This document shows positions 5,007 through 35,028 of a stretch of 64,000 nucleotides of DNA, in pieces (position 1 is the stretch's first letter; each line of letters begins with the position of its first letter). Source of the DNA: an uncultured Planctomycetota bacterium (GTDB lineage Bacteria > Planctomycetota > Planctomycetia > Gemmatales > HRBIN36); contig CALFAY010000032.1 of the NCBI GenBank assembly GCA_937944855.1, positions 10,194 to 74,193 on the forward strand, read 5' to 3'. Position numbers and translations under genes: made by a program. The notes under the pieces are model-generated. The model ran no database searches and was not told where the DNA came from. It worked only from the letters and a program-made list of their open reading frames with translations.

Positions 5007-8000
5007 TCAGGCAACAGCCCGGGGAACAAACGCCTCTTCCTCGCCGAGACCGAGCCGAACGCGGTCCCGGAGGCGTCGCCGGGCTTCGGCATTCTCGGGA
5101 ACCTGCTTCCGTAATTTCCGGAGTATCTCCAAGACCTCTTCCGCCGAGACCGCGGACTCAGGAGCGACCAGGTTGCGGACGATGCTTTGCATGGCTGCCA
5201 GGACCGAAGTCGAGCCTTCTTCAGACCGACCGAGCGTGAGCCAGCGGGCAGCTGCTTTGCCAAGCGCTTTCCAGTCGTCCGGCTCCTGGTGGCGAACGTT
5301 TGTCTCCGGCGAAAGCCACGGCGGTTCGCCAAATCCACAGATGCGCAAGTCGCCTTCTTCCGTGAGCAGGAAGCGGTTCAGGGTCAAGCGCCCGTGGTGC
5401 AGTCCAGCGGCGTGGGCAGCCTTGATTGCGTCCACGGACTGGATCATCAGATCGATCCAAACGTCGGAAGGAGCGGCGAGGTCTGCCCAATCCGTGGAAG
5501 GCAGACCAATGACCCATTCCTGCAAGGCGGCGGGGCAATCTCCGACTTCAAGAACCTCCCACGTGGCCGCCAAGTGCGGATGCCGAACCTGTGCCGCCTT
5601 CTCAAAACCTTGACGGAACTCCTCCCGACGCGATTCCTCAACTTGAGGAGACAGGCAGCGTAAGACGGCCTCCTGACCGCGACGCGGATCGAAGACCCGA
5701 TATACGCTCTCCAGCGGCGTGAGCCAAAGACGGTCCACCACGCGGAGCGGACCAAGCACGAGAGATTCGAGTTGTCCCCCTTCGATCAACTCCATCTGGT
5801 AGGCCGTCAGGTATTCGCCTTCCAAGAGCACTTGCCGCAGCGAACGGTGCCGATGTCGGGCCTCGCGGAGCAGCACCTCCAAGGTGGCCGTGTCGATCAA
5901 AGCCATGTTCAAAAGAAGGTCGGAGAGGCGGCGGTCGTCTTCGCTTGCTTCAACGGAGGTTTCCGCTGCACGGCTGGCGTCGTGGATTGCCAGGACAGGT
6001 TCGGTCCGACGGCCAGACTCATCGCTCGATGCGACGTTGCTCGTTGGCTTTTCTTCCTCTCGTTGCGCGTCTGCCTCGAGGTTGCGATGCACGACCGGAT
6101 CCAACAAGCGATGCTCGGCCAGTTCCCGCAGCTTGGACCGATACCAGCGCTGCATGTCCGCTAGATGGTGATTGATCTCGGCCCGTTGACGGGCTACGCG
6201 GCGCTCCTGATGCTCCAGTTTCTCCGCGCGTCGCGCCAATTGCGACGAAACCGCGTCAATGTGCCTAGCCTGTTGCTCCAAATCCGCCTGTTTGCGTTCC
6301 AAAGCCGATTCGTCCCGGGCCAGACGCGATTTCAGTTCGTTCAACTGTTCCTGCCACTCCAGCAAGGACTGGCGGAACTGTCCGACGGCGGCTCGGTGCT
6401 CTTCCTGCATGCGAACCAAGGCGGCACGTTCCTGTCGCACCTGGTCGGCTTGCTCAGCCACGAGCCGCTGGCCGTTCTCCAACTCCGTCAAAGCCTGCTC
6501 GGTGTAACGATAGAACTCGGACAGATGCCCGCGCAGTTGTTCTCTCGCCCGACTCAGCCGGCCGAGAGTGGCCTGGGCTTCATCGATCAGATTGGGCAGG
6601 GTCTGTCGCAGCAATTCCATCTCCTGACGTTGGCGAGCCAGTTCTTCGATCTGCCGTCGGCGGTCCTCGTCCCAGCGGGCCTTGTCGCTTTCCAACGCGG
6701 CGCGGATACGCTCAATCTCAGCCGCATCGTGACGGGTCGCGGCGGAAGCCGTGGTCAATTCGGCTTCCCGGGCCGCGAGTGCAGCGGCACGCTGATCAAG
6801 CTCATGCTGCCGACGCTGTTGTTCTTCTGCCCAGAGATTTCGCTCTTGCTCCACCTCGGCCAGCCGGCGCGACAATTCGGCTTCAACCTGACCGATAGAC
6901 TGCTCCCGGGCTTCCAGGCGCGATTCGCGCTCGGCCAGGGACTCCGCTCGTTTGCGAAGCTGGTCCTGGAGGGCCTGGCGGGCCTGATCGGCCTGCTCTG
7001 CGGCTGCTTCCCGCTCCAACAACTCCCGCTTCGCCTTTTTTAGTTTGATCCGCAGAGCGTGCAGTTGCAGCAACCGCTTCCGCAACTGCTCGCTTTTCTG
7101 GTCCACCTCCCGTTGGTGGAGTTCCAATTGCTCTTGCAACTGAGCGCGCGCCTGCTGCTCCGTTTCAAAGGTCGCCTGCAACTGGCGCAGGCGGTCCAGT
7201 GCTTCTTCGAGGGTCCGACAGCGGGATTCGATCTGTTCACGTTCGGCTTGCCAGGCGGCCCTTTCGGCTCGCAGGGCGGATTCCTGTTCCGCTTGAAGAC
7301 GCAAGGCTTCCTTCAGACGGCTTTCCATGTCGTCGAGGCGCAACCGTTGCCGAACCAACTGCTCTTCGCGAGCCACCAGTTCCGATTGCAAACGTTCGGC
7401 TCGACTGCGCAGACCGATGAGAACGACTTGCTCAGCGTCGAGCAGGCCGGCCTTGGCGGAAAGCTCCTGCATCGCCCGATCCAGCTCGGCTCGTTGGCGA
7501 GCCAACTCATCGGCTTCCGCTCGAACCCGCTTCTCCCAGTCCTCCACCTGGGAGGCCTGCACTTCGAGTTCGGTGGCCTCCCGGCGGAGCACTTCAGCCC
7601 GTTCGTCCAACTGGCGCGCGCGAACTTCGAGCCGCTCCTGCTCCTCGGCCAACCGAGCTTGCCGTCGTTCGAGATGTACCAGATCGCGGCGGTGCGTTTC
7701 CTGCTCCTGGCGAAGTTGGTCCTGTTCGGAGCGCAACGCCGACTCCGCCGCTTCAAGGCGTTTCTGCCGCTGGTCCAGTTCCTGCTCCGTTTCCCGATGC
7801 CGCTGTTCAAGCAATGCGGCCTGGCGTCGCAGCGTCTGTTTTTCCTCTTCGAGACGGCTTTGCACTTCCTGGAGATGCTGCCGTTGTTCTCGAAGGCCCT
7901 CCATCTCCGCCGCCAACGACTTGCGGTCTGCTTCGAGCTTGCGTTTTTCTTCCTGGACCTTCAGGGCGGCGTGAGCCACCGCTTGTCGCAGAGCAGCAAC

Positions 8001-8780
8001 TGCATCACGCCTCCGGGAGTAATGTTCGTGCAACTCGGTTCGGGCTTTGCGCAGCTCTTCCCGTTCCTGTTCGACCTCGGCCCGTTGAGCGGCCAGGGAT
8101 TCACTGAGCCGGGCCAGGTCCGTGGCTTGGGCATTCAGGAGTCGTTGGCGTTCCGCCACGGCCTGTTCAGAGCGGGCCAGTTCGTTGCTGGCTCTGGCGA
8201 CGGCCTGTTCGCGTTCCAGCAGTTGCCGGGAACGCAGGGCCAACGCCTCGGCCTGGCGTTCGGCGTCCTGTTCCCAATCGCGCCGGTCCTCCTCGAACTG
8301 CCGTTGGGCTTGCTCCAGTTTCCACAGGCCTTCTTCGAGCAGTTTGCGTTGTTGGGCGAAGCTCGGCGGCAAATCCGGCTCTTCGCTTGGCGGCAGCGAG
8401 TAGAAAAGCTGGACCTCAAAGGTGCCAATCTGGAGGCGGTCCTGCGGTCGCAGGAGCGTTTCCGAGCAAAGATTGCCATTGACCAGGAGTGGCAAGGCGG
8501 CAGCGAGCTTGCGGAGCCGGACCCCGCGCGTTTCCCAACTGAGCACACAAATCAAGGGGGGCAGGTCGGCACCAGGCAAGCGGAGATCGCATCCAGCGAC
8601 GGTGCCAAGCACAACGGCCGGTGCCTGCGTCGCCAAGGTGGCAATAACGTGACGCTCCTGACGTAGTTCGAGGCGGAGGACGAACGCGTCCGTCTCCGGG
8701 TTTGGCGTTGCTTTGCGGAATTGGGCAAGCGGAGCAGACTCGGCCATCCTGGCGCTCCAGGTCGGCGGCGCGTATTCCAT
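5007..8780 (-). CDS. Large FHA-domain / long coiled-coil / C-terminal protein-kinase-like (pseudokinase) protein
   Basis: 1257-aa ORF. The N-terminus is an FHA-like segment (VLGTVAGCDLRLPG...VNGNLCSETLLRPQDRLQIGTFEVQLFY). Roughly 800 aa of E/R/Q/A/L heptad-like sequence follow. The C-terminus is a kinase fold with degenerate catalytic motifs: AVLRCL instead of VAIK, GLHHGRLTLNRFLL instead of HRDLKPxN, and ICGFG instead of DFG. An alternative start is Met12 at 8747. Confidence 0.8.
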   Translation of the reverse strand: MEYAPPTWSARMAESAPLAQFRKATPNPETDAFVLRLELRQERHVIATLATQAPAVVLGTVAGCDLRLPGADLPPLICVLSWETRGVRLRKLAAALPLLVNGNLCSETLLRPQDRLQIGTFEVQLFYSLPPSEEPDLPPSFAQQRKLLEEGLWKLEQAQRQFEEDRRDWEQDAERQAEALALRSRQLLEREQAVARASNELARSEQAVAERQRLLNAQATDLARLSESLAAQRAEVEQEREELRKARTELHEHYSRRRDAVAALRQAVAHAALKVQEEKRKLEADRKSLAAEMEGLREQRQHLQEVQSRLEEEKQTLRRQAALLEQRHRETEQELDQRQKRLEAAESALRSEQDQLRQEQETHRRDLVHLERRQARLAEEQERLEVRARQLDERAEVLRREATELEVQASQVEDWEKRVRAEADELARQRAELDRAMQELSAKAGLLDAEQVVLIGLRSRAERLQSELVAREEQLVRQRLRLDDMESRLKEALRLQAEQESALRAERAAWQAEREQIESRCRTLEEALDRLRQLQATFETEQQARAQLQEQLELHQREVDQKSEQLRKRLLQLHALRIKLKKAKRELLEREAAAEQADQARQALQDQLRKRAESLAERESRLEAREQSIGQVEAELSRRLAEVEQERNLWAEEQQRRQHELDQRAAALAAREAELTTASAATRHDAAEIERIRAALESDKARWDEDRRRQIEELARQRQEMELLRQTLPNLIDEAQATLGRLSRAREQLRGHLSEFYRYTEQALTELENGQRLVAEQADQVRQERAALVRMQEEHRAAVGQFRQSLLEWQEQLNELKSRLARDESALERKQADLEQQARHIDAVSSQLARRAEKLEHQERRVARQRAEINHHLADMQRWYRSKLRELAEHRLLDPVVHRNLEADAQREEEKPTSNVASSDESGRRTEPVLAIHDASRAAETSVEASEDDRRLSDLLLNMALIDTATLEVLLREARHRHRSLRQVLLEGEYLTAYQMELIEGGQLESLVLGPLRVVDRLWLTPLESVYRVFDPRRGQEAVLRCLSPQVEESRREEFRQGFEKAAQVRHPHLAATWEVLEVGDCPAALQEWVIGLPSTDWADLAAPSDVWIDLMIQSVDAIKAAHAAGLHHGRLTLNRFLLTEEGDLRICGFGEPPWLSPETNVRHQEPDDWKALGKAAARWLTLGRSEEGSTSVLAAMQSIVRNLVAPESAVSAEEVLEILRKLRKQVPENAEARRRLRDRVRLGLGEEEAFVPRAVA

Positions 8781-9060
8781 GCGCAGCTACTCGCAGCCCT
8801 TATACCGGCACGCTCTGCGTCGGGGAAGGCGAATAGCAGAGGCATTCCTCGCAAGAGGAAGCACTTTCAACAGGCTTCCGGCTGAATCAGCATCGTCGTG
8901 GAGGTGAATCATTCGCCAATCCCATACGGCAAACGGGTTTCCTTGACGACGCTGGGGACGGATTGGTACTTTGGGATGAATGAACCGTTCCCAGGCAAAT
9001 ACCACGTCTTCGGGATGTCCCGAACGTACACGACTTCGCGGTGGCGAAGGAGTAACCTGT

Positions 9061-10383
9061 ATGCGGATGTGCATGTGTCTGGCCGTGGTGGTCATGGGCT
9101 TGGCCTTTCCGGTTTTATCAGCCCAGGAACAGGAGCAACCGGCGCCCCCCCGCGAGTTCCGCGGCGGGAAACTTGATGCCTCTCCACCCAGCGACAGAGA
9201 CCAGCGCGACTTCTTGAAGATGGTTCGCGGCCAGGAGGACGCACCCAACAACGCGGAACGCCGTAAGGAACTCTTCGAGCGCGTTCTGCGTTACTTGATC
9301 TATCGGTTGACCTGGGAAAACATCCACGACGGCCGGGATCAGGTGACGACGCGGGAAATCATGGAAGGCACTCCCGGAGCTGGCGTGGACGGTATTTTCG
9401 AGGCCTTTCCGCCGCAGAATTACAACCGGCAGACCGACGATCCCGAAGATGCGGCCCGCCGGGAGCGGCAACGTCGGTACATGAACGAGATGCGCGGCTA
9501 CGCCACGCATTATCTCCGGGAAGTCTTGGAAAATCGTCTCCTGATAGCTCGCCTCAACGCCGCTATCGTCCTGCACCGCTTCGCTGTGTACGGGCAGGAG
9601 GAAGTGGCGGACGAATTTCTCTGGATCTTGGAAAACCCCAATGAACACGACGCCATAAAGCACTGGGCAGTCAAGGGCATCGGCGAGCTTTTCTCTCAGA
9701 TCAAGAACCCGAAGGACCCGAAGCATTTCGACCGCTGCGCTTTGGCCGTGTACGCTTGGCTTGAAGCCAAGACCCAGATGCCGCCCACACTGGTGGCTGA
9801 ACTGTCTGAGCCGGAAAAAGACGCCATCCGTTACCTGCGCCGCGAAGCTGCTCGGACGCTGGCGTTGTATCGTCGTCCCGTGATCGTCGAGGATGCCAAG
9901 GCTAATGTGCGCCAAGGTCCGGTAGCGGGATTGTTGGTGCGGATCCTGGTCAATGCCGAAGGCACGGTTTCTCCACCGGCCAGCCTAAGCGAGCGGAAAG
10001 AAGCTGCCGAGGCCCTGTGCAATCTCCAGCACAAGCGGTCGGAGACCTACCAGCCTGATTACGTCGTGTATCAGGTGGCCCGCTTCATTGCCGTGTTAGG
10101 CTCGGAAGCGGATCGTGATCCTGGCCGAAGCAGCCAGCGGTGGAAGGCATTTGCCGCCCAATTGAAGGCAGCGTGGGATAACCTCAGCGATGACCTGAAA
10201 AACTCGCCTCACAGCCAGTATGTCAACCGGTTGAGTGGTCGCGTCAATCCGGTTCTGGAGTATATTTTCGACGAAACCAAAGGTGCCAACGCGGTGCCGG
10301 AACTGAATGAGTTTCTAGCCAATAATCCGCCCAAGAGTAACGACGTGTACGGTCAACCGCCTGCGAAGCAGCCCGGCGGATGA
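9061..10383 (+). CDS. Secreted alpha-helical (HEAT/ARM-like) hypothetical protein
   Basis: Start moved to ATG 9061, preceded by GAAGGAG (MRMCMCLAVVVMGLAFPVLSAQE is signal-peptide-like). The rest is helical repeat-like sequence with no catalytic motif I recognise. Confidence 0.6.
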   Translation: MRMCMCLAVVVMGLAFPVLSAQEQEQPAPPREFRGGKLDASPPSDRDQRDFLKMVRGQEDAPNNAERRKELFERVLRYLIYRLTWENIHDGRDQVTTREIMEGTPGAGVDGIFEAFPPQNYNRQTDDPEDAARRERQRRYMNEMRGYATHYLREVLENRLLIARLNAAIVLHRFAVYGQEEVADEFLWILENPNEHDAIKHWAVKGIGELFSQIKNPKDPKHFDRCALAVYAWLEAKTQMPPTLVAELSEPEKDAIRYLRREAARTLALYRRPVIVEDAKANVRQGPVAGLLVRILVNAEGTVSPPASLSERKEAAEALCNLQHKRSETYQPDYVVYQVARFIAVLGSEADRDPGRSSQRWKAFAAQLKAAWDNLSDDLKNSPHSQYVNRLSGRVNPVLEYIFDETKGANAVPELNEFLANNPPKSNDVYGQPPAKQPGG

Positions 10384-10491: not shown

Positions 10492-11247
10492 ATGCAGATC
10501 AGGCACATCCTTGAACAAGTCGCGGAAGGTCGCCTCACCGTGGCGGAGGCGGAACGTTTGCTCAAGCCGGAGCCTCTGGCTGACCTCGGTTTCGCTCAAG
10601 TGGACCTGCACCGCCGGCAACGCTGCGGTTTTCCGGAAGTGATCTTTTGCGAGGGCAAGACGCCCGAGCAGGTCGAGAGCGTGGTTCGGGAACTGCTTCG
10701 GGCCGGACAGGATTGCTTCGCGACCCGGGTCAACGAAGCCCAGGCGAACCATCTGTGTTTCCATTTTCCCCACGCTGAACAGGATCGCACGGGGCGAACA
10801 TTTTGGCTGCCTGTTTCCAAGGAGAGGCCCAATCCGCGGGGAAACGTGGCCGTGGTCACGGCGGGGACGGCCGATCTGCCAGTGGCTCACGAAGCCGCCA
10901 ACACTGCCAAGGCGATGGGCTGTCACGTTTCGCTGCTGGCCGACGTCGGTGTGGCCGGCATCCATCGCATCCTGCGTCATGCCGCAGAACTCCGCCAAGC
11001 CGATGTCATCGTAGTGCTGGCCGGGATGGAAGGAGCTTTGCCCGGCGTCGTCGGCGGGCTGGTGGATGTGCCGGTCATCGCAGTTCCAACAAGCGTCGGA
11101 TATGGCGCATCGTTTCACGGTCTGGCAGCGCTGTTGGGCATGCTCAACAGTTGTGCGGCCAACGTCGCGGTGGTGAACATCGACGCCGGGTTCAAGGCCG
11201 GCTACCTCGCGGCGTTGATTGCTCGTCGCGTCCACGCCTCGGCTTGA
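10492..11247 (+). CDS. larB: LarB-type nickel-pincer cofactor biosynthesis protein (PurE/AIR-carboxylase-like)
   Basis: 251 aa. It has the LarB-type N-terminal extension, then NVAVVTAGTADLPVAHEAANTAKAMG and VLAGMEGALPGVVGGLVDVPVIAVPTSVGYGA. Confidence 0.8.
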   Translation: MQIRHILEQVAEGRLTVAEAERLLKPEPLADLGFAQVDLHRRQRCGFPEVIFCEGKTPEQVESVVRELLRAGQDCFATRVNEAQANHLCFHFPHAEQDRTGRTFWLPVSKERPNPRGNVAVVTAGTADLPVAHEAANTAKAMGCHVSLLADVGVAGIHRILRHAAELRQADVIVVLAGMEGALPGVVGGLVDVPVIAVPTSVGYGASFHGLAALLGMLNSCAANVAVVNIDAGFKAGYLAALIARRVHASA

Positions 11248-11272
11248 GGTCGCCTCCAGGAACGAGCTTCTC

Positions 11273-12181
11273 ATGACGACCCGCGTCACAACCCTCCCCA
11301 ATCTCCCGGCACGCCCCGTGGACAGTCACAAGGGCAGTTTTGGCCGGGTGCTGGTCGTCGCCGGTTCCCGCGGCATGAGCGGAGCGGCGGTGCTGGCCGG
11401 ATCAGCTGCGCTGCGAGGAGGGGCCGGCCTGGTCGAGGTCGCGTCGCCGGCGGAAGTGCAACCCATTATCGCATCCAGCAATCCCTGTTACCTGACGACG
11501 GGACTTCCCCAGGATGGCCTCGGCCGCATCAGTCCAGATGCCATTTCCGCTATCGTGGAAAGGGCCAGCCTTGCTGACGTTGTTGCTCTCGGTCCCGGTT
11601 TGGGACTCAGCGAAGGGGTACGAGAAGTGGTCCGGTTTGCGGTGAGCGAAATCGCCAAGCCGGTCGTGCTCGACGCCGATGGACTCAATGCCCTGGCGCT
11701 GTTGACTCCGCGACCGGTCAGACCGCCCAACGCTCCCCTGGTCCTGACGCCTCATCCGGGCGAGTTCAGCCGTCTGACCGGAAAGTCAGTAGCGGAGGTC
11801 CAGGCCGACCGCGAACAACTGGCCGCTGCGTTCCCCCCGGCACCGCATGTCGTCCTGGTCCTCAAAGGCCGGGGCACCCTCGTGACCGACGGAGAAAAAA
11901 TCTATGTCAACGAGACGGGCAATCCGGGCATGGCCACGGGAGGCACCGGCGACGTGCTGACTGGATTCATCGCGGCGTTGCTGGCGCAGGGATTCTCCCC
12001 TTTCCCGGCGGCTCAGCTGGGGGTCTATCTCCACGGTCTGGCCGGTGACATAGCCCGGGACCACAAGGGCGAGTATGCCTTGATCGCTACCGATGTGCTC
12101 GATCATCTTCCCTCGGCGTTTCTGCACTATGCACGGAAGTGCCAACCTTCGTTCGGCTTCCGGGTGCAGCCCGACCCCTGA
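11273..12181 (+). CDS. nnrD: ADP/ATP-dependent (S)-NAD(P)H-hydrate dehydratase (YjeF C-terminal domain)
   Basis: From ATG 11273: [25 protein letters not shown], and [25 protein letters not shown]. Confidence 0.85.
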
Positions 12182-12302
12182 AGCGGCTCGAGGGGCTTGT
12201 TCGACGGTCCAAACTCAGCTTGGGCGATACAATAAAAGGACAGATCGAACCAGCTGGTCCGCTCGGAGGAAGTTGGTTCGATTTACCATACCTGGGGCAG
12301 GC

Positions 12303-13085
12303 ATGAGCAGCGATAGTGAGCCGTTCAAACCACCCATGATCCCGTCATTTCAACGGGTCGTGTTGAAGCTGAGCGGGGAGAGTTTCGGCACTCCGGGCAA
12401 GGGCGGGATCAGCATCGACGAGACGCTCAGCATCGCCCGGCAGGCCAAGCGGGTGGTCGAGAGCGGCGTGCAGTTGGCCATTGTCGTCGGTGGCGGAAAC
12501 ATCCTGCGCGGCTCTCAGTTCAGCGCAGGCGGGGAGATCATCAAGGAAGCGACCGCTCATTACATGGGCATGCTGGCGACAGTGCTAAATGGCCTGGCCT
12601 TGCAGGATTCCCTGGAGAGCCTGGGCTGCGAAACTCGTCTGCAAAGCGCCATCCGCATGGATACGGTGGCCGAGCCTTACATCCGTCGCCGCTGCATTCG
12701 GCACCTCGAGCGTGGCCGCATCGTCATCCTGGCAGGCGGCACGGGCAACCCGTTCGTGACCACCGACACGGCTGCCGCTCTGCGGGCCCGCGAAGTCCAG
12801 GCTGACATTCTCCTCAAAGCAACCAAAGTGGACGGCGTCTACAGCGACGACCCGGAGAAGAATCCGCACGCCATCCGCTACGAACGGCTCAGCTACAGCC
12901 AGGTGCTTCGCGACAATCTGCAAGTAATGGATATGTCGGCGATCACGATGTGCATGGAAGCCAAACTGCCGATCCTCGTATTCAATTTCAAACGGGAAGG
13001 TAACATTGAACGGGCCATTGCCGGGCAGATGATCGGCACGCTCGTCGGCGATCTGGAGGTGCGGCGGGACAAGACCAGGGCGTGA
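12303..13085 (+). CDS. pyrH: UMP kinase
   Basis: From ATG 12303: [55 protein letters not shown]. Confidence 0.9.
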
Positions 13086-31226: not shown

Positions 31227-31239
31227 TTGTAAAGATGGA

Positions 31240-31348
31240 CCCGGCAAGAACCTACTCTCGCGGCAGAAGCCACTACCATCGGCCCTGGAAGCTTAACGGC
31301 CGTGTTCGGAATGGGAACGGGTGTTTCCTTCCAGGTATCGTCACCGGG
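31240..31348 (-). rRNA. rrf: 5S ribosomal RNA
   Basis: The reverse complement reads CCCGGTGACGATACCTGGAAGGAAACACCCGTTCCCATTCCGAACACGGCCGTTAAGCTTCCAGGGCCGATGGTAGTGGC...GAGAGTAGGTTCTTGCCGGG. It contains the conserved CCCATTCCGAACACGG and GGTAGT motifs, and the two ends pair to form helix I. Confidence 0.85.
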
Positions 31349-31690
31349 ATACGCCTGAAAATCTTGAATCGGTTCTAAGGGGCTTATGCAATGCAACGTC
31401 ACTAGCCGATGCACTGGTCTAATTCTTGAAGGCAGAAAAACTCGTAATTGCTTCATCCAGTAAAAAGATTTAGCAACGGGCTAATCAATGGCACGATTAT
31501 ACAACGTTCAAGGCATTTCAAACGTAATACCTATCCAGTTGTCAAACAGCGATGTGACAATAGCGGCAGCGATAAGAAGTCGTCTCAGCGTCAAGCCCCT
31601 GCCGCTGGCAGGTCCGGGATAGGTCCGCAGGTGCAGAGTGTCTGTGGGGCAATCCCGTGACAAGCGGGCACCGGAGCCAAGGATCAATGC

Positions 31691-34508
<2,818 letters not shown>

Positions 34509-34955
34509 GCATTGATCCCGTGCTCGGGTTCCGCCGTTGCCGACCTCACCCGCTACGCGATCAATCGTCCGCTACTGCGTAACGATGATCCTTCGCTCTC
34601 CTAAGGGCTCGTTGCTGAGAACTTCCTCTCCAGGCAGCCTTGCGGCTGCCTGGCGACGGAAGATGCAACTCTTACCGCTGCCGAATTGTCAAAGATCCTG
34701 CGTCCCGCCAGATCTCCCCGACGGAACCGCCCAAAATGGGCAGGAGTCGCTGCATCTCTTCCTTGCCATGCCGCGACTCGCGCCCACTCCAGCGATCGTG
34801 TCGGCCGGTTCAGATTAGATATGCGAGCGGCTCAGAGGTTTCAAGATCCGCTCACATTTTTTTTTCCGATCTCGGCCTCTCATCAAGGCTCAGCTTCCTC
34901 GGTAGCCGTTATGGTAGGCTGGGCGGCTATCGGCGGCAAGACCGGCAACATTTTT

Positions 34956-35028
34956 TGGAGACGACCGGGGTCGAACCGGCAACCTCCGGCTTGCAAAACC
35001 GGCGCTCTCCCAATTGAGCTACGTCCCC
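34956..35028 (-). tRNA. tRNA-Ala (anticodon UGC)
   Basis: The reverse complement is GGGGACGTAGCTCAATTGGGAGAGCGCCGGTTTTGCAAGCCGGAGGTTGCCGGTTCGACCCCGGTCGTCTCCA. It folds as a cloverleaf with anticodon loop TTTGCAA. It has the G3:U70 alanine identity pair. CCA is not encoded. Confidence 0.9.

What the first reader, a model, noticed from the sequence alone, without database searches (positions are those of the whole stretch)
5007..8780. 1257-aa FHA domain, ~800-aa coiled coil and C-terminal pseudokinase protein
The protein has three parts.
- The N-terminus has FHA-like features, suggesting phosphothreonine recognition.
- The centre is an uninterrupted E/R/Q/A/L-rich stretch of roughly 800 residues, comparable in length to SMC or eukaryotic tether coiled coils.
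- The C-terminal ~250 aa align by eye to a Hanks-type kinase fold, but every catalytic residue is replaced. The VAIK Lys is Arg (AVLRCL). HRDLKPxN reads HHGRLTLNRF, so the catalytic Asp is lost. DFG reads GFG, so the Mg-binding Asp is lost.

This combination suggests a phospho-signal-dependent structural scaffold or tether rather than an enzyme. Planctomycetes are rich in Ser/Thr kinase signalling and have unusual cell biology, so a very long filament with a phospho-reader at one end and a pseudokinase docking module at the other is an attractive candidate.
Basis: partly seen in the sequence, partly recalled or inferred. Interest (0 to 1): 0.6.

Follow-up and report, generated by a model that had tools for sequence, protein, structure and literature searches.

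The report
Giant coiled-coil protein with dead signalling ends
This is a real gene, conserved across the Gemmatales, for a roughly 110 nm rod-shaped protein with an FHA-fold domain at one end that has lost its phosphate-reading residues and a catalytically dead kinase domain at the other, so it is probably a structural scaffold whose role is unknown.

Summary
The ORF is real but lies on the minus strand (5007..8780). Its start is probably M12, which gives 1246 aa.

- An N-terminal FHA fold. The ortholog profile matches the FhaA FHA domain at E=1.4e-8, and the AF2 model matches FHA structures at TM 0.80-0.85.
- About 755 aa of heptad coiled coil.
- A C-terminal Hanks-kinase fold (AF2 pLDDT 87; top matches PknI, the MviN pseudokinase, PknA and PknB). 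VAIK-Lys is Arg in 41/41 orthologs, HRD-Asp is absent in 41/41, DFG-Asp is Gly in 40/41, and there is no Gly-rich loop.

New findings:
- The FHA domain is also degenerate. Every canonical phosphothreonine-binding residue is replaced in 36/36 orthologs, so the "phospho-reader" reading is not supported.
- A highly conserved helical domain of about 60 aa precedes the pseudokinase.
- The family was found in 190 species-representative genomes. The 80 loci returned carry Gemmatales, Gemmataceae or broader Planctomycetota labels, plus a few that look mislabelled.
- The gene has a fixed architecture and no conserved neighbours. Public sources call it "chromosome segregation ATPase" or "hypothetical protein".

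Best reading: a non-enzymatic rod with two phosphorylation-independent docking ends. These ends may bind each other, as known FHA-pseudokinase pairs do.

The parts
5007..8780 (-). Whole ORF: 1257 codons plus a stop codon. The likely true start is M12 at 8747, giving 1246 aa.
   Evidence: ORF list and translation. Orthologs P0078 and P0079 start at the equivalent of M12.
8400..8690 (-). FHA-fold beta-sandwich (residues 31-127). It is degenerate: every canonical phosphothreonine-binding residue is replaced.
   Evidence: Pfam PF16697, E=4.6e-7. Ortholog profile against FhaA FHA, E=1.4e-8. 36/36 orthologs hit PF16697. AF2 model with pLDDT above 90 for most of the domain. Foldseek TM 0.80-0.85 to FHA structures. 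Residue counts at the binding positions.
8010..8399 (-). Proximal helical or coiled-coil segment (residues 128-257). Its length varies among orthologs, from 61 to 198 aa.
   Evidence: AF2 predicts a helix from residue 141. Gap fraction of 0.2-0.47 in the alignment. Segment-length standard deviation of 27.5 aa.
6096..8009 (-). Core coiled-coil rod (residues 258-895, about 92-95 nm if continuous). Sub-segment lengths are nearly invariant, and there are many conserved Arg, Glu, Gln, Trp and Phe positions.
   Evidence: Heptad score above shuffled sequence. Indels mostly of 7, 11 or 21 residues, and more than 80 columns at 85% identity or higher. Segment lengths: 458->590 is 132 aa (sd 1.1); P729->W809 is 80 aa in 41/41.
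6594..6596 (-). Pro729 codon: a conserved kink or break in the rod, within the motif 'LPxL'.
   Evidence: Pro in 40 of 41 orthologs. Heptad breaks cluster at 730 and at 760-779.
5949..6095 (-). Acidic, low-conservation, probably disordered linker (residues 896-944).
   Evidence: Most-common-residue frequency of 0.13 and gap fraction of 0.60 for residues 901-930. pLDDT below 50 at the start of the C-terminal model. Net charge of -1 to -8 across orthologs.
5766..5948 (-). Four-helix domain (residues 945-1005) preceding the kinase N-lobe. This is the most conserved part of the protein. It is possibly T2SSE_N/MshEN-like but lacks that family's c-di-GMP motif.
   Evidence: AF2 helices H20-31, H37-49, H54-60 and H66-73 of the model, pLDDT about 90. 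Most-common-residue frequency of 0.79-0.82. Weak profile hits to the MshEN-type domains of PilF, MshE and PilB.
5010..5765 (-). Hanks-type pseudokinase domain (residues 1006-1257). VAIK-K is R1041, HRD reads H1129-G-R1131, DFG reads G1149-F-G, and there is no Gly-rich loop. The alpha-F Asp (D1169) is retained.
   Evidence: phmmer against PDB sequences, E=4e-5, with alignment. AF2 pLDDT 87 and pTM 0.80. Foldseek top hits are PknI, the Rv3910/MviN pseudokinase, PknA and PknB. Family residue counts.

Best explanation
The gene encodes a non-enzymatic structural protein found so far in planctomycetes of the order Gemmatales. It is a long alpha-helical coiled-coil rod of about 755 residues, roughly 110 nm if fully extended, with a core of about 620 residues whose geometry is tightly fixed.

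Both ends carry domains that descend from Ser/Thr-phospho-signalling modules but have lost their signalling chemistry:
- At the N-terminus, a YscD/EssC-like FHA fold without phosphothreonine-binding residues.
- At the C-terminus, after a flexible acidic linker and a conserved helical domain, a Hanks-kinase fold without the Gly-rich loop, the VAIK Lys, the alpha-C Glu, the catalytic Asp or the Mg-binding Asp.

The ends most likely act as phosphorylation-independent protein-docking modules, so the protein would work as a spacer, tether or scaffold.

**Shown here:** the folds, the loss of catalytic and phospho-binding residues, their conservation across the family, the coiled-coil character with length-constrained segments, the restricted taxonomy, and the absence of an operon.

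**Inferred:** the dimeric rod, the docking function, and the secondary proposal that the FHA-like head binds the pseudokinase tail of another molecule (head-to-tail assembly) or of the same molecule or dimer (closure). That proposal rests on analogy with the two known bacterial FHA-pseudokinase pairs, EssC/YukB-EssB/YukC and FhaA-MviN.
For: - **FHA fold:**
- **Loss of phosphothreonine-binding residues in 36/36 orthologs:**. The loops on the canonical binding face ('LPGxxLPP') are the most conserved part of the FHA domain (residues 61-90). This suggests that face is still used, but for a different kind of ligand.
- **Kinase fold:**
- **Catalytic residues absent and replaced by conserved R, H/R and G:**
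- **No ATPase or other catalytic signature, no CxxC motif, no transmembrane segment:**
- **Coiled coil:** composition and heptad score; indels mostly of 7, 11 or 21 residues; near-invariant segment lengths.
- **Fixed three-part architecture:** more than 50 stop-to-stop ORFs of about 1170-1430 aa in species-representative genomes carry both end domains. There are also 88 mostly full-length database proteins. The pseudokinase lies at the extreme C-terminus in the full-length representatives.
- **No conserved neighbouring gene in 81 loci**. The neighbours in the window are housekeeping genes.
- **Precedent for phosphorylation-independent FHA-pseudokinase binding:** the YukB FHA domains bind the YukC pseudokinase domain, and these FHA domains lack phospho-binding residues (PMC9600267; cryo-EM in PMC12637312).
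- **Shared crystal structure among the best matches:** the best structural matches for both ends include the two chains of one entry, 3OUN, the FhaA FHA domain in complex with the Rv3910 pseudokinase domain.
Against: - No experiment and no interaction prediction was possible, so the docking function and any head-tail binding are inferences by analogy.
- The oligomeric state and the strand orientation of the coil are unknown.
- The charges of the two end domains are not obviously complementary.
- The pseudokinase pocket keeps a set of invariant charged residues (R1013, D1016, R1017, E1024, D1031, R1041, R1056). These could bind a small anionic ligand, so 'pure scaffold' may be too simple.
- The loss of FHA phospho-binding residues is read from sequence alignments to FhaA and Ki-67. 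It was not confirmed by a residue-level structural superposition.
Confidence: 0.6

Rival explanations
1. This is the first reader's version: a phospho-signal-dependent scaffold. The FHA domain would bind a phosphothreonine placed on a partner (or on the protein's own linker) by one of the many planctomycete Ser/Thr kinases, so that assembly is switched by phosphorylation.
For: - The FHA fold is genuine.
- Most orthologs, though not the window's clade, carry a conserved 'ILSLTG(D/E)V(D/E)PGD' motif in the linker. It contains a Thr followed at +3 by Val or Ile, which resembles known FHA-binding preferences.
- R90 and N101 are invariant in the FHA domain.
Against: - All five canonical phospho-contact positions are replaced, mostly by Pro or aliphatic residues, in 36/36 orthologs.
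- The conserved Thr motif is absent from the window protein and its closest relatives.
- The best Pfam match is to the YscD-type model, PF16697, which all 36 orthologs hit. From background knowledge, YscD-type FHA domains do not bind phosphopeptides.
- No kinase or phosphatase is a conserved neighbour.
Confidence: 0.12
2. An SMC/Rad50-like folded rod. The coil folds back on itself as an antiparallel hairpin with its apex near the conserved G449 block, so the N-terminal FHA domain and the C-terminal region come together into one composite head.
For: - Family-level heptad breaks fall in two mirror pairs, about 255/685 and about 330/605, around residue 467 or so. This is next to the highly conserved block 443-463, which contains a Gly present in 73% of orthologs.
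- The known FHA-pseudokinase pairs show that such domains can bind each other.
Against: - Only two mirror pairs were found, which could arise by chance.
- The N-arm length (250-398 aa) varies widely, while the C-arm (271-289 aa) is fixed. The two lengths are not correlated (rho 0.23, p=0.15).
- There is no hinge domain and no CxxC hook.
- About 120-160 residues of conserved coil beyond the putative paired region would be left unexplained.
Confidence: 0.13
3. A ligand-regulated pseudokinase switch. The degenerate active site, the preceding MshEN-like helical domain, or both still bind a nucleotide or second messenger such as ATP or c-di-GMP, and this allosterically controls what the rod binds.
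For: - There are invariant charged residues around the former ATP site, including Arg in place of the VAIK Lys in 41/41 orthologs.
- A survey of bacterial Ser/Thr kinases suggests non-canonical ligand binding for another pseudokinase family with a Lys-to-Arg substitution (bioRxiv 10.1101/2025.01.12.632604).
- The helical domain gives weak profile hits to the c-di-GMP-binding MshEN domains of PilF and MshE.
- This region is the most conserved part of the protein.
Against: - The Gly-rich loop, the DFG Asp and the catalytic-loop Asn are all missing, so canonical Mg-ATP binding is unlikely.
- The MshEN-type hits are individually non-significant (per-domain E above 10; 5HTL at E=0.16). The Arg and Gly positions of the c-di-GMP motif are not conserved in the family. 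The motif itself is recalled from memory.
Confidence: 0.12
4. A chromosome segregation or DNA-repair ATPase (SMC- or SbcC-like), as JGI/IMG annotation labels many orthologs; or an anti-phage defence protein.
For: - Source names include 'chromosome segregation ATPase' and 'SbcCD ATPase subunit'.
- There are weak NCBIfam hits to SMC and Rad50 (33 bits or less, against cut-offs above 500) and a weak PADLOC hit to JetC.
Against: - All of these hits fall inside the coiled coil and score far below their cut-offs.
- There is no Walker A motif, and no hinge or zinc hook.
- The termini are an FHA fold and a kinase fold, not ABC ATPase half-domains.
- The gene occurs once in each of the returned genomes, and it is not found in variable islands or with conserved partners.
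Confidence: 0.02

Closest known systems
T7SSb EssC/YukB FHA domains paired with the EssB/YukC pseudokinase (Bacillota)
   Same: - A degenerate FHA fold that lacks phospho-binding residues, together with a catalytically dead Hanks-type pseudokinase.
- In T7SSb the two bind each other independently of phosphorylation and serve as assembly modules (PMC9600267; PMC12637312).
   Different: - In T7SSb the two domains are on separate membrane proteins of a secretion machine encoded in one operon.
- Here they are the two ends of one soluble polypeptide, separated by about 755 aa of coiled coil.
- No secretion genes lie nearby.
- Binding between the two ends was not tested.
Mycobacterial FhaA (Rv0020c) FHA domain with the MviN/Rv3910 intracellular pseudokinase domain (PDB 3OUN)
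   Same: The best sequence and structure matches for both ends include these two proteins:
- FhaA FHA: profile E=1.4e-8, TM 0.80-0.85.
- Rv3910 pseudokinase: Foldseek E of about 6e-10.
   Different: - From background knowledge (Gee et al. 2012), the FhaA-MviN interaction depends on phosphothreonine and uses the canonical Arg and Ser residues that this family lacks.
- FhaA and MviN are separate proteins, and MviN is a membrane flippase.
- Sequence identity is only 15-19%.
YscD/PscD/EscD cytoplasmic domain (Pfam PF16697, T3SS)
   Same: This is the best Pfam model for the N-terminal domain in all 36 orthologs. There are also structural matches to 4A0E, 4D9V and 6UID. From background knowledge, it is an FHA fold without phosphothreonine-binding residues.
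   Different: - YscD is an inner-membrane ring component with a transmembrane helix and periplasmic domains.
- This protein has no transmembrane segment and no T3SS context.
- The window protein scores below the Pfam cut-off (30.4 against 33.2 bits).
Bacterial coiled-coil-rich cytoskeletal or scaffold proteins (Scy/FilP, crescentin, Ccrp, DivIVA-type) and eukaryotic FHA-plus-long-coiled-coil proteins (SLMAP, FHAD1, CEP170, kinesin-3 CC1-FHA)
   Same: - A long heptad rod used as a structural or spacing element.
- An N-terminal FHA domain followed directly by a coiled coil, as in KIF1A and KIF13 CC1-FHA, which are among the structural hits.
   Different: - No sequence homology beyond coiled-coil composition. 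The 'CRWN_N' (plant lamin-like) hits on orthologs are graded faint in the one locus where a grade is shown, and PF27881 is listed without a grade for other orthologs.
- None of these proteins ends in a pseudokinase.
- The comparison with Scy, FilP, SLMAP and FHAD1 rests on background knowledge and was not tested here.

Membership tests
FHA domain (Pfam clan: PF00498 FHA / PF16697 Yop-YscD_cpl) | Beta-sandwich FHA fold of 11 strands | tested here: met
   The AF2 model of residues 31-127 has pLDDT above 90 over most of the domain. Foldseek gives TM 0.80-0.85 and rmsd 1.9-2.7 A to the Rv0020c, Ki-67 and OdhI/GarA FHA domains.
FHA domain (Pfam clan: PF00498 FHA / PF16697 Yop-YscD_cpl) | Significant profile match | tested here: met
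   The window sequence alone scores 30.4 bits against a 33.2-bit cut-off for PF16697. However, the ortholog profile hits FhaA FHA at E=1.4e-8, and 36/36 orthologs match PF16697 and 25/36 match PF00498 at E<=0.01.
FHA domain (Pfam clan: PF00498 FHA / PF16697 Yop-YscD_cpl) | Conserved phosphothreonine-binding residues (the Arg of 'GR', the Ser and His of 'SxxH', and the loop Asn; FhaA R459, S473, H476, N495) | tested here: not met
   Only the Gly is retained. Arg is replaced by S/T/G, Ser by P (31/36), His by L/I/V, and Asn by Q/L. No canonical residue is present in any of 36 orthologs.
Hanks-type Ser/Thr protein kinase (PF00069) | Bilobal protein-kinase fold | tested here: met
   AF2 pLDDT 87 and pTM 0.80. 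Foldseek hits PknI, PknA, PknB, Stk1 and others at E of about 1e-9 to 1e-10, TMt 0.5-0.67. phmmer against PDB sequences gives E=4e-5.
Hanks-type Ser/Thr protein kinase (PF00069) | Catalytic motifs: GxGxxG loop, VAIK Lys, alpha-C Glu, HRD Asp, catalytic-loop Asn, DFG Asp | tested here: not met
   - The Gly-rich loop is replaced by 'RVVDRLxxT'.
- Lys is Arg in 41/41.
- The alpha-C Glu is Arg in 36/41.
- The HRD Asp is H/R/N/S/A, with no Asp in 41/41.
- The catalytic-loop Asn position is variable.
- The DFG Asp is Gly in 40/41.
Hanks-type Ser/Thr protein kinase (PF00069) | Pfam gathering score | tested here: not met
   15.6 bits against a 31.7-bit cut-off, E=0.011. Among the 88 near-full-length orthologs, none carries a precomputed PF00069 hit. 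One short C-terminal fragment (P0045) does.
Bacterial pseudokinases (MviN/Rv3910-type, EssB/YukC-type) | Kinase fold with catalytic residues lost and the loss conserved across the family | tested here: met
   Rv3910 pseudokinase structures (3OUN_B, 3UQC, 3OTV) are among the top Foldseek hits.
Bacterial pseudokinases (MviN/Rv3910-type, EssB/YukC-type) | Orthology or specific sequence relationship to MviN or EssB, and membrane anchoring | tested here: not met
   Only 15% identity to Rv3910 in the structural alignment. No transmembrane segment. The family forms its own tight cluster (136 clusters at E<=1e-30), separated by a wide gap from generic kinases.
Bacterial pseudokinases (MviN/Rv3910-type, EssB/YukC-type) | Binds an FHA-domain partner | not testable with these tools
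   This needs an interaction assay or a multimer prediction.
SMC/Rad50/SbcC 'chromosome segregation ATPase' (the database label of many orthologs) | ABC ATPase head (Walker A/B and signature motif) split between the two termini, plus a hinge or zinc hook | tested here: not met
   No Walker A or CxxC motif. The termini are an FHA fold and a kinase fold. NCBIfam SMC hits score 29-33 bits against cut-offs of 567-729 bits and lie within the coil only.
T2SSE_N / MshEN c-di-GMP-binding domain | Significant sequence-profile similarity | tested here: inconclusive
   The profile of the helical domain hits PilF (6F8L) at a summed E=0.001, but each domain is individually above E=10. MshE (5HTL) scores E=0.16 and PilB (9G1W) E=0.49. 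No member of the alignment hits Pfam PF05157.
T2SSE_N / MshEN c-di-GMP-binding domain | Tandem motif RLGxx(L/V/I)(L/V/I)xxG(L/V/I)(L/V/I)xxxxLxxxLxxQ (recalled from memory) | tested here: not met
   In the alignment to PilF, the position of the motif Arg is Q/K/R/H in the family. The internal Gly is Glu or Leu in the first half, and the second half lacks both the Arg and the Gly of 'RLG'.
Coiled-coil rod | Heptad periodicity, almost no Pro or Gly, and indels compatible with heptads or hendecads | tested here: met
   An ad hoc heptad score is above shuffled sequence over most of residues 160-880, with 1 Pro and 9 Gly in 780 residues. Most multi-residue indels are 7, 11 or 21 residues long. A standard predictor (MARCOIL or DeepCoil) was not available.

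The most novel reading that the evidence does not exclude
The degenerate FHA head and the pseudokinase tail are a matched, phosphorylation-independent binding pair. They would let rods of about 110 nm join head to tail into filaments or a lattice. That would make this a previously unrecognised cytoskeletal system found so far only in Gemmatales, built from domesticated Ser/Thr-signalling domains. It might be linked to the order's unusual features, such as FtsZ-less budding and extensive membrane invaginations.
Probability: 0.18. Interest if true: 0.75.

Novelty: new variant of a known kind. Interest (0 to 1): 0.45.

Why it matters
- Bacterial pseudokinases and degenerate FHA domains are few and mostly unstudied. 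The two best-understood examples, EssB-EssC in type VIIb secretion and MviN-FhaA in cell-wall synthesis, each pair a pseudokinase with an FHA domain.
- Finding both modules fused to opposite ends of a length-constrained rod of about 110 nm, conserved in 190 species-representative genomes, points to a third use of this pair, this time architectural.
- It also gives a concrete, testable candidate for a structural element in Gemmatales. The cell biology of this order (budding without FtsZ, complex endomembranes) lacks known cytoskeletal players.
- In practical terms, the result corrects a widespread misannotation ('chromosome segregation ATPase') and flags a pseudokinase family that the precomputed Pfam Pkinase annotations examined here almost entirely miss.

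Tried and rejected
- **Plus-strand reading of the coordinates.** It is full of stops, and the gene is on the minus strand.
- **Operon or synteny clues.**
  - Only the closest relative (L002, 73% identical) shares neighbours with the window.
  - Clustering of all ORFs in 81 loci found no neighbour shared by more than about 9 loci.
  - The neighbours in the window are housekeeping genes: ROK, CbiX, LarB, NAD(P)HX dehydratase, pyrH, frr and pyrG.
- **SMC, Rad50, JetC or defence identity.** Only sub-threshold coiled-coil hits were found, and there is no Walker A motif.
- **PF27881, listed on orthologs.** This is 'CRWN_N' and is graded faint in the one locus where a grade is shown, so it looks like a coiled-coil artefact.
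- **MshEN/c-di-GMP domain.** The hits are thematically consistent but not significant, and the motif residues are not conserved.
- **Hairpin (antiparallel) test.**
  - Two mirror pairs of heptad breaks lie around residue 467 or so.
  - Arm lengths are uncorrelated, so the question is unresolved.
- **Length-ruler test.** The variance of the total coil length is about equal to the sum of the segment variances. There is therefore no compensation between segments, and the conserved length comes from a fixed core.
- **Charge complementarity of the two ends.** None is evident.
- **Literature.**
  - No paper in the searchable library combines Planctomycetes or Gemmata with an FHA domain and a pseudokinase.
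  - The bacterial Ser/Thr kinase survey lists seven pseudokinase families and does not mention planctomycetes.

Full report
**1. The observation**

The window holds an ORF of 1257 codons at 5007..8780, but on the minus strand. The plus-strand frame is full of stops. The two closest database orthologs (P0078, 90% identical, 1246 aa; and P0079) both begin 'MAE...' at the position of M12. The true gene is therefore probably 5007..8747. GC content is about 62%, like the surrounding sequence.

**2. N-terminal domain**

- The single sequence hits Pfam Yop-YscD_cpl (FHA clan) at residues 53-125, E=4.6e-7, just under the gathering score.
- I extracted the equivalent region from 35 related genomes. The resulting profile hits the FHA domain of M. 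tuberculosis FhaA/Rv0020c at E=1.4e-8, followed by the Ki-67, KIF13B and Rv1747 FHA domains.
- All 36 sequences match PF16697, and 25 match PF00498.
- An AF2 model has pLDDT above 90 over most of residues 31-127. It superposes on FHA structures at TM 0.80-0.85 and rmsd about 2 A.

The FHA fold is therefore real. However, in the HMMER alignments to FhaA and Ki-67, the phosphothreonine-contacting residues are all replaced:

| FhaA residue | Residue in this family |
|---|---|
| R459 | S/T/G |
| S473 | P (31/36) |
| R474 | P |
| H476 | L/I/V |
| N495 | Q/L |

No canonical residue is kept in any of 36 orthologs. The loops on that face ('GCDLRLPGxxLPP') are nevertheless the best conserved part of the domain. 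This is the pattern seen in the phosphorylation-independent FHA folds of YscD and EssC.

**3. The rod**

- Residues 141-920 are 72.6% E/R/A/L/Q, with one Pro and nine Gly. An ad hoc heptad score exceeds that of shuffled sequence over most of residues 160-880.
- In a 41-sequence full-length alignment, most multi-residue indels inside the rod are 7, 11 or 21 residues long. More than 80 rod positions are at least 85% conserved, including an invariant 'FRQ...WQ' (802-810) and a near-invariant 'HLxDMxxWYRxKLREL' (872-887).
- Segment lengths between conserved anchors are almost fixed:

| Segment | Length |
|---|---|
| 346->458 | 112 aa (sd 1.9) |
| 458->590 | 132 aa (sd 1.1) |
| P729->W809 | 80 aa in 41/41 |
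| W809->W879 | 70 aa (sd 2.9) |

- Only the FHA-proximal part (127->258, 61-198 aa) and the linker after the rod vary in length.
- Pro729 is conserved in 40/41 orthologs, and heptad breaks cluster there.
- As a continuous coiled coil, residues 141-895 would span about 112 nm and the fixed core about 92 nm.
- Whether the coil is a parallel dimer or folds back on itself is unresolved. Two mirror pairs of breaks lie around residue 467 or so, near a conserved Gly-containing block, which hints at a hairpin. Arm lengths do not co-vary.

**4. C-terminal region**

After an acidic, gappy linker (about 896-944) comes a four-helix domain (about 945-1005). This is the most conserved stretch of the protein. 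Its profile gives weak, thematically consistent hits to the MshEN/T2SSE_N domains of PilF, MshE and PilB. The hits are not significant, and the c-di-GMP motif positions are not conserved.

The last 250 residues or so are a Hanks-type kinase fold:
- The AF2 model has pLDDT 87 and pTM 0.80.
- The top Foldseek hits are PknI, the Rv3910/MviN pseudokinase, PknA and PknB.

Family-wide counts confirm a dead active site:

| Motif position | State in the family |
|---|---|
| VAIK Lys | Arg in 41/41 |
| alpha-C Glu | Arg in 36/41 |
| HRD | H-G-(H/R), Asp in 0/41 |
| Catalytic-loop Asn | variable |
| DFG Asp | Gly in 40/41 |
| Gly-rich loop | replaced by 'RVVDRL' |

No conserved Lys or Asp lies nearby that could substitute. 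The alpha-F Asp is kept.

**5. Distribution and context**

- A scan of one genome per GTDB species found 190 genomes that encode a relative. The best 80 are labelled Gemmatales or Gemmataceae (including Zavarzinella formosa DSM 19928, Fimbriiglobus, Limnoglobus, Frigoriglobus and 'Bacterium HR36'), or more broadly Planctomycetota or Planctomycetia. A few MAG labels look wrong.
- More than 50 of these loci carry stop-to-stop ORFs of about 1170-1430 aa with both end domains.
- An exhaustive search of 1.84 billion representative proteins found 136 clusters at E<=1e-30 and 247 at E<=1e-10, followed by a wide gap to generic kinases. In the full-length representatives the domain lies at the extreme C-terminus.
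- Public names are 'hypothetical protein', 'chromosome segregation ATPase', 'SbcCD ATPase subunit' and similar. These are coiled-coil artefacts. There is no Walker A motif or zinc hook, and the SMC-type hits fall far below their cut-offs.
- Among the 88 near-full-length orthologs, none has a precomputed Pkinase hit, so the pseudokinase has gone almost entirely unnoticed. One short fragment does carry such a hit (P0045).
- No neighbouring gene is conserved. The window's neighbours are housekeeping genes.

**6. Mechanism**

Shown here: a long, geometrically constrained coiled-coil rod; two end domains with signalling folds but no signalling chemistry; no catalytic signature; conservation across the 190 genomes found.

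Inferred: the protein is a structural spacer or scaffold, and its ends are phosphorylation-independent docking modules.

A specific and testable extension comes from precedent. In T7SSb, the degenerate FHA domains of YukB/EssC bind the YukC/EssB pseudokinase without phosphorylation (PMC9600267; PMC12637312). In mycobacteria, the FhaA FHA domain binds the MviN pseudokinase (PDB 3OUN). The two chains of that entry are among the best matches for the two ends of this protein. The two ends may therefore bind each other, which would give head-to-tail polymers or closed forms. I put about 0.6 on the scaffold reading and about 0.2 on self-pairing.

**7. Comparison with what is known, and novelty**

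- The domains are known kinds (FHA fold, Hanks pseudokinase, coiled coil).
- The protein fails the functional membership tests for a phosphothreonine-binding FHA domain, for an active kinase and for SMC.
- I found no description of the architecture (pseudo-FHA, rod of about 755 aa, helical domain, pseudokinase) in the searchable literature.
- A recent survey of bacterial Ser/Thr kinases lists seven pseudokinase families and does not mention planctomycetes.
- I class it as a new variant of a known kind: an uncharacterised family found so far only in Gemmatales.

**8. Verdict**

This is a well-defined, testable candidate structural protein in a lineage with puzzling cell biology, but there is as yet no functional evidence.

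Noticed in passing
window 31239-35028 (- strand): 23S rRNA (31689-34508), 5S rRNA (31239-31348) and tRNA-Ala(TGC) (34956-35028) are present. No 16S rRNA is found anywhere in the 64 kb window. This is consistent with the split rrn operon known in planctomycetes, and it explains the dip in GC content at 30-36 kb.
   Followed up: partly
window 8748-8780 (- strand): The first 11 codons of the ORF are probably not translated. Orthologs P0078 and P0079 start at the equivalent of M12 ('MAES...'), and M12 is invariant in the 6-sequence N-terminal alignment A3.
   Followed up: partly
window 8980-10383 (+ strand): The divergently transcribed 467-aa ORF immediately upstream has no Pfam or NCBIfam match. 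It is 84% identical in the syntenic relative L002, so it is a conserved unknown protein.
   Followed up: no
orthologs, linker before the helical domain (e.g. L015:10001-10255, L020:9944-10198): Most orthologs carry a conserved short motif, 'ILSLTG(D/E)V(D/E)PGD', just before the helical domain. It contains a Thr with Val or Ile at +3. The motif is absent in the window protein and its closest relatives, which read 'VLAIHDAS...'.
   Followed up: partly
L001:7484-10864: In one long ENA contig the ortholog is called as four consecutive or overlapping genes of 418, 112, 312 and 287 aa. This looks like frameshift fragmentation in the assembly rather than a natural split. Such fragments, together with many short contigs, explain why the first homolog search returned only proteins of 190-578 aa.
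   Followed up: partly
orthologs in public databases (P0086, P0087, P0106, P0224 and others): JGI/IMG names this family 'chromosome segregation ATPase', 'SbcCD ATPase subunit', 'CwlO-like peptidoglycan hydrolase' or 'Zn-ribbon protein'. All of these are coiled-coil artefacts. A precomputed Pfam hit, 'CRWN_N' (a plant lamin-like protein), is graded faint where a grade is shown.
   Followed up: yes
window protein residues 443-463 (window ~7392-7454, - strand): There is a highly conserved block inside the rod (R443, E448, G449 in 73% of orthologs, Q450, Q451, L457, R458, R460). Two pairs of family-level heptad breaks (about 255/685 and about 330/605) are mirror-symmetric about a point at residue 467 or so, just after this block. 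It may be an elbow or hairpin apex, or a partner-binding site.
   Followed up: partly
window 10492-11247 (+ strand) and 11219-13085: A LarB (nickel-pincer cofactor biosynthesis) homolog is followed by NAD(P)HX dehydratase, UMP kinase, ribosome recycling factor and CTP synthase. The long ORF calls overlap at their 5' ends. For example, in the 330-aa ORF at 12093-13085 the kinase-domain match starts only at residue 88, so the annotated starts are probably too far upstream.
   Followed up: no
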